64,000 nucleotides of DNA from a virus (Duplodnaviria > Heunggongvirae > Uroviricota > Caudoviricetes). The notes under the pieces are model-generated. The model did not search any database and was not told the DNA's origin. It was given only the letters and a program-made list of their open reading frames with translations. Numbering within the stretch: position 1 is the stretch's first letter; the number at the start of each line of letters is the position of its first letter. A program made the position numbers and the translations under genes. The stretch is taken from positions 1-64,000 of IMG/VR virus record IMGVR_UViG_3300037258_000549; one strand, given 5' to 3'. Shown here piece by piece: positions 1 through 57,060 of the stretch.

Positions 1-1320
1 AGGGCAGGCGGGACTGGGACCGGGGCGGAAAGTCGGTGTGGAACGGGCTGGGCAGGGGCGGGTCGGCCAGGCAAGTCGGTGTGAGATGGGTTGATTGGAG
101 GCGATCAGGGCTGGCAAGTCGGTATGGTGCGGCCAGGAACGTGATGGGTCGAGACGTCGGTGTGGGTCGGGACGAAGCGGTACGGGGTGGGTAGTCGGCC
201 TGGGGCGGGTCGGCTGGGTCTGGGCGGGGCTGGATGGTGTAGTCGTACGGGCTGGCTCGGATTGGGCTGGGTAGGGCAGGTAAGTCGGGGTGGTGCGGAC
301 GGGAACGGAATGGTAAGTCGGCGCGGGCTGGTTCGGTGCGTGATGATCCGGGAAGTCGGTAGGGGCCGGGCGGGGTAGGGGCGGATCGGGGTGGCTTGTC
401 GGTATGGAACGGACGGGGCAGGTATGGCAAGTCAGTACGGGGCGGGGCGGACCGGGGTGGCTTGTCGGCAGCGGCCAGGCAGGGGCGTTTCGGCTCGTCG
501 GTGTGGGGTGGGTTGGGCTGGGTTGGGTGGTCGGGGCCGGTTGGCTTGTCGGCAGGAGGGGGCTGGTGTGGTGCGGCTTGTCGGCTCGGCGCGGACCTGG
601 GGTGACGTGGTTCGCTTGGGATGGCTCGGCTAGTCGGGCAGGTGGGGGTCGGACGGGGGTGGCGTGGCTCGTCGGGGAGGTGAGGCTTGCTGCGGGCCGG
701 GCTGGCGTGGCGAGTCACGGGTGCGGACGGGTTTGGGTTGGTAAGTCGGTGCGGGCAGGTGAGGCACGAGGTGGCCTGTCGGCTTGGCCTGGGGCGGCGC
801 GTGATGGACGGGCGTGTCGGCCTGGGCTGGAGTGTAATGGACTGGCGCGTCGGCGGGGGCCGGGTAGGGGTGGGTCGAGACGGTTCGTCGACGTGGGAAG
901 GAGTGAAGCGGTGTGGGCGGGACAGAGCTGGGTGGTCGGTGTGGCCTGGCGGGGGCTGAGGCGGGTTGGGCTGTGAAGGATAGTCGGTACGGTGCGGTTC
1001 GGGCTGGAGCGGGTTGTCGGTGTGGCCTGGCGGGGGCTGAGGCGGGTTGGGCTGTGAAGGGTAGTCGGTGCGGGCAGGTGAGGCACGGGGTGGCATGAGA
1101 AGTCGGTACGGTGCGGTTCGGAAAGGGAGGACAAGTCGGCGGGGGAGGGATCGGGCAGTCTCGGCTCGTCGGGGAGGGGTGAGCGGGCCGGGTTTGGCTG
1201 GTGATGACAAGTTGGTGCGGGCCGGATTTGGCTGGGGTGGGATGGCCGGATGCGTCGGGTAAGCCGGACAGGTGCTGGGATGTCGGCGCGGGGAGGGCCA
1301 GGAGAAGTCGATGAGGTTTG
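1..1320. repeat. Block B1 of degenerate RGTCGGYRCGG repeats (G-rich on + strand); runs off the left edge of the window
   Basis: Dozens of GTCGG(T/C)(A/G)CGG motifs separated by GGG-rich, A/T-poor spacers. No consistent reading frame. Confidence 0.8.
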
Positions 1321-1426
1321 TGTAGCCGCCCTGATGCGGCGTAGCGGTAGCACTAGACCGTATGATACCTTCTGCTCCAGCGACCGCAAATTAGCTGTAA
1401 GGCAACAGTTGCACCCTCTCCTGCGG

Positions 1427-1441
1427 TCTGTTACAGTATAG
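1427..1441 (+). promoter_or_regulatory. Promoter-like motif TCTGTTACAGTATAG (copy a), preceded by AACAGTT
   Basis: About 36 nt upstream of the 1463 ATG. The same 15-mer family recurs at 3910, 12410, 13805, 20364, 52889 and 54263. Confidence 0.4.
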
Positions 1442-1462
1442 AACGAGCCCAAGGAGGGGAGC

Positions 1463-2173
1463 ATGACACCATCGAGTGAGCGCGATTACCTGGACGAAGT
1501 GGCCGAGGAGGTCGCTAAGTACCTCGACGGCCACGATCACGTTATCTCAGCGGAGGCAGCCAGTGAGCTGATCGCCCGCTGGGAGGCGGAAAACCCCGGC
1601 CTGCTGATCGGCTGGCTGCGCGTCCGGGCACAGCAGGTGCTGAAGGATTACATTTACACGGTCACCCTGAGCCGGGGCGCCCGCCGCCGCGGGGAAGAGC
1701 AACGCGGCCGGTTCGCCAAGTTCGCCGATGGCTTCCACGACGCGCTGAATGAGGGAGCGGAGAAAGGGCGGGAGTTTTACCGCTACCACAGCGTGACGGA
1801 AGGAGCGCTGCTGATCAGGAAGCCACTCGGTGACCTGACCGCCAAGCAGGTCCAGGAGGTGCGTGACCGCTACCACCAGGCGGCCCGGGACAGCGGGTTC
1901 TACGCCCGGGTTTACGAGAAGGTCCGGCTGCGGGTAGTCGCAAAGGGGTCGGAGGCGGTCGTCGCTGACGTCTATACCCCGGAGCAGCTGGAGAACATGT
2001 TCAAGCGGGGGGACCGGTCGCCGCTGGTAGCGGAGGACCTCCGCGCGGCCTCCGATCGACAGCAGTCGTCGACAGGCGCCGGGGAAGCCGGGCCGCCGGC
2101 CGTTGGTGCCGGGGAAGCCGGGCCGCCGCAGCAAGACGCCGTAGCGGAAGTGCGCTTTCAGCCTGGGGTGTAA
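1463..2173 (+). CDS. Hypothetical protein
   Basis: RBS AAGGAGGGGA then ATG. GC3-rich coding. Contains an internal 30-bp tandem duplication (GAGEAGPP x2) at ~2078-2137. Confidence 0.6.
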   Translation: MTPSSERDYLDEVAEEVAKYLDGHDHVISAEAASELIARWEAENPGLLIGWLRVRAQQVLKDYIYTVTLSRGARRRGEEQRGRFAKFADGFHDALNEGAEKGREFYRYHSVTEGALLIRKPLGDLTAKQVQEVRDRYHQAARDSGFYARVYEKVRLRVVAKGSEAVVADVYTPEQLENMFKRGDRSPLVAEDLRAASDRQQSSTGAGEAGPPAVGAGEAGPPQQDAVAEVRFQPGV

Positions 2174-2257
2174 ACGGCAACCAGGGGATAAGAAAATAAG
2201 CACAGCGATGATCCGGGGAATCACCCGGGTCAGGAAAAGCACAGGAGAGCGGCAGTA

Positions 2258-55255: not shown

Positions 55256-55369
55256 AGTTGCTGACTGCGGAGCGACTAGGTATCCGCCAAAAGAGAGGAT
55301 AACTAGCATGCACTACCGCGCTGAGCTGCTTGAACGCCTGTGAGATACTGAGCGCGAAAGGGGGTATCA

Positions 55370-55903
55370 GTGCCTGACGATGACCGGCTGACCGCGCTGC
55401 AGCTCGCTGTCGCCGTGCAGACGGCAAACAAGAGCTTGCCGACCGCGCAGGCGGGGGACGTGACGGCGATGGCGGAGGCCTTCTACCGCTGGCTGGAAGC
55501 TCCCGTTACCCTGGTTCTCTCCTGTGATCCGCTCACTTACCCGCAGGCGTCCCCGGAAAGCCCGGGAACACCGACTGTTATGAAGGGAAGTACCGTGCAA
55601 CTCACCGATACCCAGCAGGTCACGCTCACCGTGTCCGAGCAGGACAGCAAGCAGCAGCCGGTCACCGGCGACAGCCTCGCCTGGACGGTCGACAACCCGG
55701 CCGTCGTCGTGATCACCCCGGCTGCCGACGGCTACTCGTGCCTGTGCGTGGCGGGAACCGACGGCGTGGCTACCGTTACCGTCGCGGACAACACGGTGAC
55801 GCCGCCGCTGACCGGCACGGACGTGCTCACGGTGGTCTCTTCCGCCGCGACCAGTCTCATGGTCAGCGAGGGCACCGCGGAAGACCAGCCGCCCGCAGTC
55901 TGA
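55370..55903 (+). CDS. Protein with a bacterial Ig-like (Big_2-like) domain
   Basis: RBS GAAAGGGGG then GTG. TVMKGSTVQLTDTQQVTLTV...VATVTVAD. Confidence 0.5.
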   Translation: MPDDDRLTALQLAVAVQTANKSLPTAQAGDVTAMAEAFYRWLEAPVTLVLSCDPLTYPQASPESPGTPTVMKGSTVQLTDTQQVTLTVSEQDSKQQPVTGDSLAWTVDNPAVVVITPAADGYSCLCVAGTDGVATVTVADNTVTPPLTGTDVLTVVSSAATSLMVSEGTAEDQPPAV

Positions 55904-56092
55904 GCTGTAGCTGAAGCTCCCGGGTGGCGCACCGTCCGCAGCGTGCGCTACCCGGGGCAGGACCAACTGAAGTAGCAAGGTAATAGCATGCGCGTCCTTA
56001 CCACCGCCGCCCTGTCCGGTGGCTCATTGGTTCCAGTCGACAACGTGAGGTCGAGTACGCCTCGGCCGCCGCGCACCCGAGCAGGCTGAGCG

Positions 56093-56758
56093 ATGGCCGT
56101 CGCGCCGAAGCCGAAGAAGACCGCCGCTCAGGCGAAGGCAGCGACCGCGTTCGCGGCGGCAGGCCGGGCGGCGCAGGCGGCTACCCGGGCGGCGGCGATC
56201 AAGAAGACTGGTAAGCCACCACCGGTTTCTAAGGCCCGGCATCAGGCAGCACTGAAGTGGGCGGCGGCCGGGCGCGCGTCCCAGGCAGCAGCTAAAGCCG
56301 GCAAGAAGGTAGCAAAGAAGAAGGTCGCTGCCGTTGCCCCGGAGCTGCTCCAGGCGCACCCGGGCGCGCAGTGGCCTGTCGGCTGCAACGATACTGACCC
56401 TACGTGCGCGGCGGTGGCTGTCGCCTGCCATCTGCAAGCAGTTACCGGCTTTACCATGAGCAACAAGGACATATTGAAGCTGCACCGGCTAGCCGGCGGT
56501 GAAACCGGAGCGACGATCAGCGACGTGCTGGAAGCGATGCAGGAGCACTGGGCCAGCTTTAGTAAAGGCCGGGTCAGGTTGCTGTCGTTTTTCCAGACTG
56601 ATGAGCAGTTTATTGTCGCGGGCCTGGTAGTCGGCGTCCAGCTTGGTCATGAGGGGCACGCCGTTTTGTCCTGCCCCGGGGGGATGATCACTTGGGGCCG
56701 GTACCTGCCGTGGGCGGGCGAGCCCCGTGAAGCATGGGCCATCGAGTGGGGTTTGTGA
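56093..56758 (+). CDS. Ala/Lys-rich N-terminus plus a putative Cys/His peptidase-like C-terminal domain (candidate lysis enzyme)
   Basis: N-terminal AKAATAFAAAGRAAQAA... and C-terminal ...DPTCAAVAVACHL...GHAVLSCPGGMITWG. The function is a guess. Confidence 0.45.
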   Translation: MAVAPKPKKTAAQAKAATAFAAAGRAAQAATRAAAIKKTGKPPPVSKARHQAALKWAAAGRASQAAAKAGKKVAKKKVAAVAPELLQAHPGAQWPVGCNDTDPTCAAVAVACHLQAVTGFTMSNKDILKLHRLAGGETGATISDVLEAMQEHWASFSKGRVRLLSFFQTDEQFIVAGLVVGVQLGHEGHAVLSCPGGMITWGRYLPWAGEPREAWAIEWGL

Positions 56759-56759
56759 G

Positions 56760-57060
56760 GTGGAAAGGATAGTCAGTCGGCGCGGGGTGGGGTGGTACTG
56801 GCGAGGGTGGTCGGCGAGGTTTGGGCGGGGGCAGGCTGAGGCGTGATGGGACGGCTCGTCGACGAGGGATGGGCAGGGAGGACCCGGGCTGGCCAGTCGG
56901 CGCGGACGGGGAAGGATGGGGCTGGCCAGTCGGACCGGGCAGGACCGGGCGGGCATGGGAGGACCAGTCGGCGGGGAATGGGGCGGACTGACATGGGAAG
57001 GCCAGTCGACGGGGCATGGGGCGGGCGGGGTTGGCTCGTCGGGGCGAATCGCTGATTAGG
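56760..57060. repeat. Block B6 of RGTCGGYRCGG repeats
   Basis: G-rich GTCGG tract. Followed by a degenerate copy of the 15-mer (CTGCCATCATATCAAGG). Confidence 0.75.

What the first reader, a model, noticed from the sequence alone, without database searches (positions are those of the whole stretch)
1..57060. Family of polar intergenic elements built from degenerate RGTCGGYRCGG arrays (nine or more copies)
- **Blocks.** Seven blocks are G-rich on the + strand: 1-1320, 3042-3840, 13275-13805, 27790-27870 (mini), 52415-52890, 53976-54264 and 56760-57060. Two are inverted C-rich blocks: 16742-16905 and 19343-19905.
- **Composition.** Each block is almost devoid of A/T-containing stop codons. It contains many copies of the oriented 10-11-mer GTCGG(T/C)(A/G)CGG(G) at irregular 8-55-nt spacing. 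Most copies read GTCGGTACGG or GTCGGCGCGGG. The spacers are full of GGG runs, which gives G-quadruplex potential on the G-rich strand.
- **Boundary module.** Every block is capped at one end by a conserved ~40-bp module. In the G orientation it reads ...TAGCCACCCTGGTGTGGCGTGCTTAGAGTATAGC (B3) or CCGCCCTGGTTACGGAGTC(C/T)(T/C)CTG(G/C)AGTATA(G/C) (B4, B5). In the C orientation it reads TATAAT-N8-ACGCCACACGAGGGTGGCTAGGCAAACC (C2) or TATAAG-ACGCCATATAAGGGTGGCTACGCAAGCC (C1). These are reverse complements of one another.
- **Placement.** The blocks always sit between operons. Examples: right after the 3006-3041 terminator, 1 nt after the 52414 stop, and on both sides of the terminase gene.
- **Reading-frame behaviour.** Length varies from 80 bp to more than 1.3 kb. 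The ORF track shows proline-rich ORFs in several frames on the C-rich strand, which argues against coding.

I know of no described phage element with this architecture. The orientation, the terminal TATA box and the clustering of an asymmetric motif suggest one of three things: an array of binding sites for a phage DNA-binding protein (analogous to oriented stoperators but massively reiterated), a promoter-driven C-rich transcript, or a G4/R-loop-based transcription boundary.
Basis: seen in the sequence. Interest (0 to 1): 0.9.

Follow-up and report, generated by a model that had tools for sequence, protein, structure and literature searches.

The report
Oriented G-rich repeat arrays between phage genes
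This soil phage genome holds eleven non-coding stretches, each up to 1.3 kb long, built from many copies of a short G-rich repeat. All copies point the same way and each stretch ends in a short conserved tag. They sit in the gaps between genes, so they look like a lineage-specific control or spacer element of unknown function rather than hidden genes.

Summary
Confirmed and refined. The 90.8-kb phage contig (an actinophage-like virus from a soil metagenome; the structural genes are identified) carries 11 non-coding elements: 9 inside the window at the stated coordinates, plus two more at genome 69036-70238 and 88915-89600. Each element is a G-rich array (about 51% G on one strand) built from degenerate GGNNN pentamers, with a GTCGG junction every 23-43 nt (5k+3 spacing). 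Every motif copy points the same way (152 GTCGG against 0 antisense copies). Motif density is far above dinucleotide-shuffled controls, and there is no codon periodicity, so the arrays are not coding. Each array ends in a conserved capping module of one of four subtypes. The commonest subtype (6 copies) carries a 5-bp inverted repeat kept paired by compensatory changes. In most elements the G-rich strand follows, on the same strand, the stop codon of the gene before it. Close relatives in IMG/VR carry elements at the same genomic sites: the modules are conserved but the array contents are reshuffled. Similar arrays also occur in two more distant viral contigs. Canonical G-quadruplex motifs are not enriched beyond what the composition gives. 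The function is not shown. My best guess is a transcriptional punctuation unit: a functional dyad module plus a hypervariable G-rich spacer. The alternative that these are neutral repeats that expand and shrink remains strong.

The parts
1..1322 (+). E1 G-rich GGNNN/GTCGG array (contig starts inside it)
   Evidence: 33 GTCGG, 0 antisense; period-5
1310..1375 (+). E1 capping module, type A (core 1323-1342)
   Evidence: core match 1 mismatch; aligned in A1
3005..3037 (+). canonical intrinsic terminator upstream of E2 (context)
   Evidence: 15-bp GC stem + T-tract
3042..3840 (+). E2 array
   Evidence: 24 GTCGG
3838..3890 (+). E2 capping module, type C (GGTTTG..TAGCCGTCA..CAGGCGTCA)
   Evidence: seen directly; same type at the E5 site of relative L101
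13275..13785 (+). E3 array
   Evidence: 12 GTCGG
13776..13820 (+). E3 module, type A (core 13786-13805) with AGTATAG box
   Evidence: exact core; core also found in relatives L090/L091
16762..16905 (-). E4 array (G-rich on minus), antisense to flanking + genes
16732..16771 (-). E4 module, type A (core 16742-16761)
   Evidence: A1
19377..19905 (-). E5 array (G-rich on minus) downstream of the terminase stop codon
19339..19386 (-). E5 module, type A (core 19357-19376); TATAAT at 19343-19348 on +
   Evidence: A1
27790..27864 (+). E6 mini-array just after the head-tail connector gene
27855..27905 (+). E6 module, type A (core 27865-27884)
   Evidence: A1
52415..52871 (+). E7 array starting 1 nt after the stop of ORF 50219-52414
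52862..52903 (+). E7 module, type B (CCGCCCTGGTTACGGAGTC...GAGTATAG)
   Evidence: exact
53976..54245 (+). E8 array
54236..54278 (+). E8 module, type B; TATACC 6 nt before the ATG (54284) of the head-tail adaptor gene
56760..57040 (+). E9 array
57041..57080 (+). E9 module, type D (AGGCGGACTKCCATC; shared with E10, genome 68950-69036 minus)
   Evidence: seen directly

Best explanation
What the elements are. This is a family of polar, non-coding intergenic elements in one phage lineage. Each element has two parts:
- a hypervariable G-rich spacer array built from degenerate GGNNN pentamers, with oriented GTCGG junctions;
- a conserved distal capping module.

What the evidence shows. In most copies the array fills the gap behind the stop codon of the gene before it, on that gene's coding strand. 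The module sits at the far end, close to the next gene.

Proposed mechanism (inferred, not shown):
- The module is the functional part. Its 5-bp dyad is kept paired by compensatory changes and is followed by a TA-rich box. It acts as transcriptional punctuation, either as a termination/processing or factor-binding site, or as a promoter-like box for the next gene.
- The G-rich array is transcribed as the 3' extension of the gene before it. It forms a structured G-rich RNA and very stable rG:dC hybrids, which could pause RNA polymerase or form R-loops.
- Because every array is built from the same repeat vocabulary, arrays turn over quickly by slippage or unequal exchange. This explains why their contents differ between relatives while module positions are kept.
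For: - Arrays are far above chance and strictly oriented, with a non-coding period-5 architecture.
- The type-A dyad is kept paired by compensatory A-T/G-C and C-G/T-A changes, including one G-T wobble that pairs only in G-strand RNA: 98% paired; covariation score beaten by 1 of 500 shuffles and by no column slide.
- In 8 of 10 informative elements the G-rich strand is co-oriented with the gene before it. Six arrays start 0-20 nt after that gene's stop codon.
- The G-strand RNA folds better than its shuffles (E7 z -2.94, E3 -2.66, E2 -1.53); the C strand folds worse (E7 z +2.52).
- In relatives, the modules sit at the same sites and homology resumes 30-70 bp past the module, while array contents differ.
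- Modules occur only together with arrays. No module was found in 401 actinobacterial genomes.
Against: - No transcript data at all (no RNA run).
- E2's array lies downstream of a strong canonical terminator, so it need not be transcribed from the gene before it.
- E4 and E5 are antisense to their neighbouring genes.
- The module hairpin is no more stable than shuffles.
- Types B and D have no obvious dyad.
- No sigma-70-like promoter or terminator matches at modules.
- Several elements lie inside the structural gene cluster, where long read-through late transcripts would be expected.
Confidence: 0.3

Rival explanations
1. Neutral or selfish expanding repeats. The arrays are minisatellite-like pentamer repeats that expand and contract by replication slippage and unequal exchange. 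They have no function of their own and are anchored next to functional modules or gene ends.
For: - Higher-order units of variable size (33/38 nt) and lengths from 75 to 1300 bp.
- Array contents differ between relatives at the same site, and an array in a relative can look more like other paralogs than like its ortholog.
- Patchy distribution: absent from more distant relatives (73-81% MCP identity).
- Canonical G4 motifs are not enriched beyond composition.
Against: - Neutral repeats would not keep the module dyad symmetric through compensatory changes.
- The architecture is kept identical in distant viral contigs L147 and L144.
- Strong co-orientation with the gene before each element (8/10).
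Confidence: 0.25
2. Binding-site arrays. The arrays are tandem binding sites for a phage or host DNA-binding protein that recognises oriented GTCGG-containing units; the dyad module is a high-affinity nucleation site.
For: - The oriented 5-nt motif is repeated 10-30 times per array.
- The dyad module is typical of a site for a dimeric protein.
Against: - Motif spacing has no helical phasing (both 33 and 38 nt are common).
- No HTH or other candidate DNA-binding protein was found among the annotated genes.
- The genome record is only about 65% complete.
Confidence: 0.15
3. Recombination or cassette-exchange hotspots. Shared repeat vocabulary lets arrays act as homeologous recombination 'linkers', so gene blocks are gained, lost or swapped at arrays between related phages.
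For: - In relatives, presence/absence blocks have array sites as boundaries: the E2-E3 11-kb block is absent in L101; the E3 cassette is missing in L004; the E4 block is missing in L100 and L004; the HNH endonuclease region beside E10 is missing in L090.
Against: - Breakpoint intervals are not enriched at arrays: 16/46 against a null of 14.6 (P=0.41).
- Breakpoint edges within 100 bp of arrays: 15/95 against 8.3 (P=0.07). These edges are not independent.
- No recombinase was found.
Confidence: 0.15
4. C-rich antisense RNA. A promoter in the module drives a C-rich RNA antisense to the array and the gene before it.
For: - A TATAAT-like box lies at E5 on the C strand.
Against: - The C-strand RNA folds worse than shuffles.
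- C-strand ORFs are not conserved.
- The TA-box orientation differs between copies.
Confidence: 0.05

Closest known systems
REP/BIME intergenic repeated elements of enterobacteria (RAYT-mobilised REPs); from memory
   Same: Interspersed intergenic repeats placed 3' of genes, often in clusters. They carry a dyad-symmetric core and are thought to act on mRNA stability and termination.
   Different: REPs are about 35-nt imperfect palindromes. These are 75-1300-bp oriented G-rich pentamer arrays with a short dyad only in the type-A module. No RAYT/Y1 transposase is present. They occur in a phage, not a host chromosome.
Mycobacterial interspersed repetitive units (MIRU-VNTR); from memory
   Same: Intergenic, usually between co-oriented genes and abutting the upstream stop codon. 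Built of tandem units whose number varies.
   Different: MIRU units are about 50-100-bp tandem copies in a bacterial chromosome. Here the units are degenerate 5-nt pentamers with higher-order units of about 33-38 nt, and the copies are in a phage.
Mycobacteriophage stoperators (Cluster A) and start-associated sequences (Cluster K); from memory
   Same: Short oriented motifs repeated across a phage genome in intergenic positions, with a presumed regulatory role.
   Different: Those are single 13-17-bp sites bound by a known repressor or placed upstream of starts. Here the motifs are massed in long G-rich arrays, plus a separate dyad module.
G-quadruplex-forming G-rich simple sequence repeats in bacteria (e.g. 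PMC4692102; title only seen)
   Same: Repeated G-rich units on one strand with G4 potential.
   Different: Canonical three-tier G4 motifs are not enriched here beyond composition. The repeat is pentameric, not 6-9 nt, and sits at gene 3' ends in a phage.
Integron gene cassettes (gene + 3' attC hairpin); from memory
   Same: A gene followed by a structured recombination-site-like element at its 3' end. Such units can be gained or lost as cassettes.
   Different: No integrase is present. There is no attC-like 57-141-bp imperfect palindrome. Arrays are G-rich pentamer repeats.

Membership tests
REP/BIME | About 35-nt imperfect palindromic core | tested here: not met
   The type-A module has only a 5-bp inverted repeat with a 6-nt loop. 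Types B and D have no clear dyad.
REP/BIME | Associated RAYT (IS200/IS605 TnpA_REP, Y1 transposase) | tested here: not met
   No PF01797 hit in the 90.8-kb record. The record is only about 65% complete.
REP/BIME | Intergenic position 3' of genes | tested here: met
   6 arrays start 0-20 nt after a co-oriented stop codon.
MIRU | Tandem units of about 50-100 bp | tested here: not met
   Period-5 units with 23-43-nt higher-order spacing.
MIRU | Between co-oriented genes, abutting the stop codon | tested here: met
   8/10 co-oriented.
Stoperator system | Single 13-bp asymmetric sites bound by the phage repressor | tested here: not met
   The repeated motif is 5 nt and clustered. No repressor was identified.
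G4-forming SSR | Enrichment of canonical G3+ quadruplex motifs | tested here: not met
   82 against 114+-20 in shuffles. Only two-tier GGnnnGG motifs are enriched.
Integron cassette | IntI tyrosine integrase and attC sites | tested here: not met
   No PF00589. No attC-type palindrome.
Intrinsic terminator | GC-rich hairpin followed by a U-tract at the element end | tested here: not met
   No terminator-like matches at modules. The only canonical terminator lies before E2, not after it.

The most novel reading that the evidence does not exclude
The arrays are a phage-encoded, transcription-coupled cassette-boundary system. Reading into the G-rich arrays from the gene before each one makes persistent R-loops, which start recombination or recombination-dependent replication. 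This lets gene cassettes, each capped by a conserved module, be gained, lost and swapped among related phages.
Probability: 0.1. Interest if true: 0.8.

Novelty: new variant of a known kind. Interest (0 to 1): 0.5.

Why it matters
About 7% of this phage genome is taken up by a polar, non-coding repeat architecture:
- it is strictly oriented, built from pentamers, and capped by modules;
- it is kept at the same sites in related phages while its contents turn over;
- similar arrays appear in distant phage contigs.

No described phage element has this architecture, as far as my limited searches and my own knowledge go. If the elements punctuate transcription, they would be a new class of phage cis-regulatory units in high-GC hosts, where canonical terminators are scarce. 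If they also mark or mediate the boundaries of exchangeable gene cassettes, they would make the old question of how phage mosaic junctions arise directly testable, because they give a sequence-defined boundary that can be deleted or inverted.

Tried and rejected
- Canonical G-quadruplex selection: rejected. G3 G4 motifs are not enriched beyond dinucleotide-shuffled composition.
- Hidden coding: rejected. There is no codon periodicity. C-strand Pro-rich and G-strand Gly-rich ORFs have no conserved homologs; the only tblastn hits are array-to-array low-complexity matches.
- A known RNA family: none found (Rfam at gathering threshold; only a tRNA at 8723-8786).
- A host chromosomal repeat family: the type-A module pattern was not found in 401 actinobacterial genomes searched.
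- Mobilising enzymes: no Y1 transposase, tyrosine integrase, serine resolvase, RecT or ERF in the record. The record is only about 65% complete, so this is not proof of absence.
- Array enrichment at synteny breakpoints: not significant for intervals (P=0.41); marginal for edges (P=0.07).
- Intrinsic terminator at modules: no matches.
- Expression: no RNA holder listed; only a soil DNA metagenome run holds the sequence. A Logan contig from that run spans the E7 array intact.
- Literature searches for GTCGG, G-rich intergenic phage repeats, pentanucleotide periodicity and mosaic-boundary repeats found no matching element.
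Full report
Genome context. The window is the first 64 kb of a single 90,776-bp contig. IMG/VR classes it as linear, and CheckV puts completeness at about 65%. 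It is a tailed phage:
- terminase large subunit 17338-19338, portal 21241-24219, protease 24241-25275, MCP 25421-26683, connector 27370-27792;
- head-tail adaptor at 54284, tape measure at genome 73855-79407, Dit/tail protein at 79497-82724;
- DNA methyltransferases, glycosyltransferases, a sugar epimerase, an HNH endonuclease and an RF-1-domain protein.
Its terminase is about 35% identical to Rhodococcus and Arthrobacter phages. Its MCP relatives in bacterial genomes are in Micromonosporaceae, Kribbellaceae and Nocardioides, so the host is probably an actinobacterium. The only public run that holds it is a soil metagenome.

The elements. Against dinucleotide shuffles the motif is strongly enriched:
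- GTCGG: 152 against 48+-6.
- GG-n3-GTCGG: 114 against 12.5.
- GTCGGYRCGG: 36 against 0.6.

Internal architecture:
- Orientation is strict: 152 sense against 0-1 antisense CCGAC.
- GG sits 5 nt before and 8 nt after each GTCGG.
- Successive motifs are spaced 23, 28, 33, 38 or 43 nt (5k+3).
- G shows period-5 autocorrelation, with GGnnnGG at z=19 and GGnnnnnGG at z=-12.
So the arrays are degenerate GGNNN pentamer repeats, with higher-order units that start at GTCGG. They have no codon periodicity (genes: lag 3 +0.03; arrays: -0.16). C-strand Pro-rich ORFs are not conserved in relatives. Canonical G4 motifs are not enriched beyond composition (82 against 114). The abundant two-tier G4 motifs are a by-product of the pentamer build.

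Capping modules. Each array ends at its 3' end (reading the G strand) in a module of one of four subtypes:
- A: TAGCCRCCCTNNTGYRGCGT, preceded by GGYTTG and followed 10-16 nt later by a TA-rich box. Found at E1, E3, E4, E5, E6, E11 and in relatives.
- B: CCGCCCTGGTTACGGAGTC...GAGTATAG, at E7 and E8.
- C: at E2, and at the E5 site of relative L101.
- D: AGGCGGACTKCCATC, at E9 and E10.
Eleven type-A copies, from this genome and relatives, were aligned (A1). They keep a 5-bp inverted repeat (GCCRC/GYGGC) 98% paired, with compensatory A-T to G-C and C-G to T-A changes and one G-T pair. The covariation score was beaten by only 1 of 500 shuffles and by no column slide. This is evidence of selection on the dyad. 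The module hairpin alone is not unusually stable.

Placement. In 8 of 10 informative cases the G-rich strand is the coding strand of the gene before it. Arrays at E3, E6, E7, E8, E9 and E10 start 0-20 nt after that gene's stop codon. Arrays fill 10 of the 25 non-coding gaps of at least 250 bp. There are three exceptions:
- E4 and E5 flank the terminase and are antisense to it.
- E2 lies just downstream of a strong canonical intrinsic terminator at 3005-3037.

Relatives. IMG/VR relatives with 88-89% MCP identity carry elements at the same sites: E1, E2-like, E5 and E10 (L003/L100/L092 from one contig, L004/L091, L005, L090, L101). The modules are kept, and homology resumes 30-70 bp past the module. 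Array contents differ, however: orthologous arrays do not match each other preferentially. Gene blocks are present or absent at array sites:
- the E3 cassette is missing in L004;
- the E4 block is missing in L100 and L004;
- the E2-E3 11-kb block is replaced by one array in L101;
- the HNH region beside E10 is missing in L090.
Formal enrichment of breakpoints at arrays is weak (intervals P=0.41; edges P=0.07). More distant relatives (73-81% MCP) have neither arrays nor modules at these sites. Two distant viral contigs (L147, L144) carry arrays with exactly the same architecture: 51% G, zero antisense motifs, period 5. L147's array lies beside a homolog of ORF 2258-2980.

Mechanism. The functional evidence is indirect. 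The G-strand RNA of an element folds better than its shuffles (z -1.5 to -2.9), while the C strand folds worse (z +2.5). My best explanation, at confidence 0.3, is a polar transcriptional punctuation element. The conserved dyad module is the working signal: termination or processing, or a factor-binding or promoter-like site for the next gene. The G-rich array is a transcribed 3' spacer that is prone to R-loops and turns over quickly.

The rivals, with confidences:
- Neutral expanding repeats anchored at modules (0.25).
- Protein-binding arrays (0.15).
- Recombination or cassette-boundary hotspots (0.15).

What would decide between them: transcript-end mapping, dyad mutation with compensatory restoration, DRIP-seq, DAP-seq, and breakpoint mapping in complete relatives.

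Novelty and interest. No matching described element was found, so this is a new variant of the intergenic-repeat kind. Interest 0.5.

Noticed in passing
window 8723-8786 (+): tRNA gene (Rfam RF00005, 30.2 bits) in a 1.27-kb gene-free gap.
   Followed up: no
window 13834-14592 (-); 29831-30526 (+): Two DNA methyltransferase-like genes (phrog_363; phrog_2675/glycosyltransferase); the first lies beside E3's module, convergent with it.
   Followed up: no
window 29831-40813: Cluster of glycosyltransferases and a nucleotide-sugar epimerase: a possible DNA- or surface-glycosylation module inserted between connector and tail genes.
   Followed up: no
genome 70685-71551 (-), beside E10: HNH endonuclease (many PHROG HNH families). 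It and the neighbouring gene are absent from relative L090, which keeps the array.
   Followed up: partly
window 57799-58200 (-) and 57467-57781 (+): Phage-encoded RF-1 (GGQ release-factor) domain protein and a K+-channel-like (Ion_trans_2) protein.
   Followed up: no
window 46681-50217 (+): 1178-aa ORF with internal coding repeats of 41/43 nt and 60-66-nt periods (repeat families D1-D3, D5, D6). A separate, coding repeat system.
   Followed up: no
window 21241-24219 (+): 992-aa portal ORF carrying an extra region with a weak thymidylate-synthase-family match: possible fusion or mis-called start.
   Followed up: no
contig ends (genome 1 and 90776): The contig begins inside array E1. There is no terminal repeat between the ends. 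CheckV completeness is about 65%, so the true genome is probably larger and the replication module may be missing.
   Followed up: partly
window 19370-20050 (+): Pro-rich ORF ending in a hydrophobic, transmembrane-like C-terminus. Its N-terminal part comes from the C-strand of E5 and it is not conserved in relatives.
   Followed up: partly
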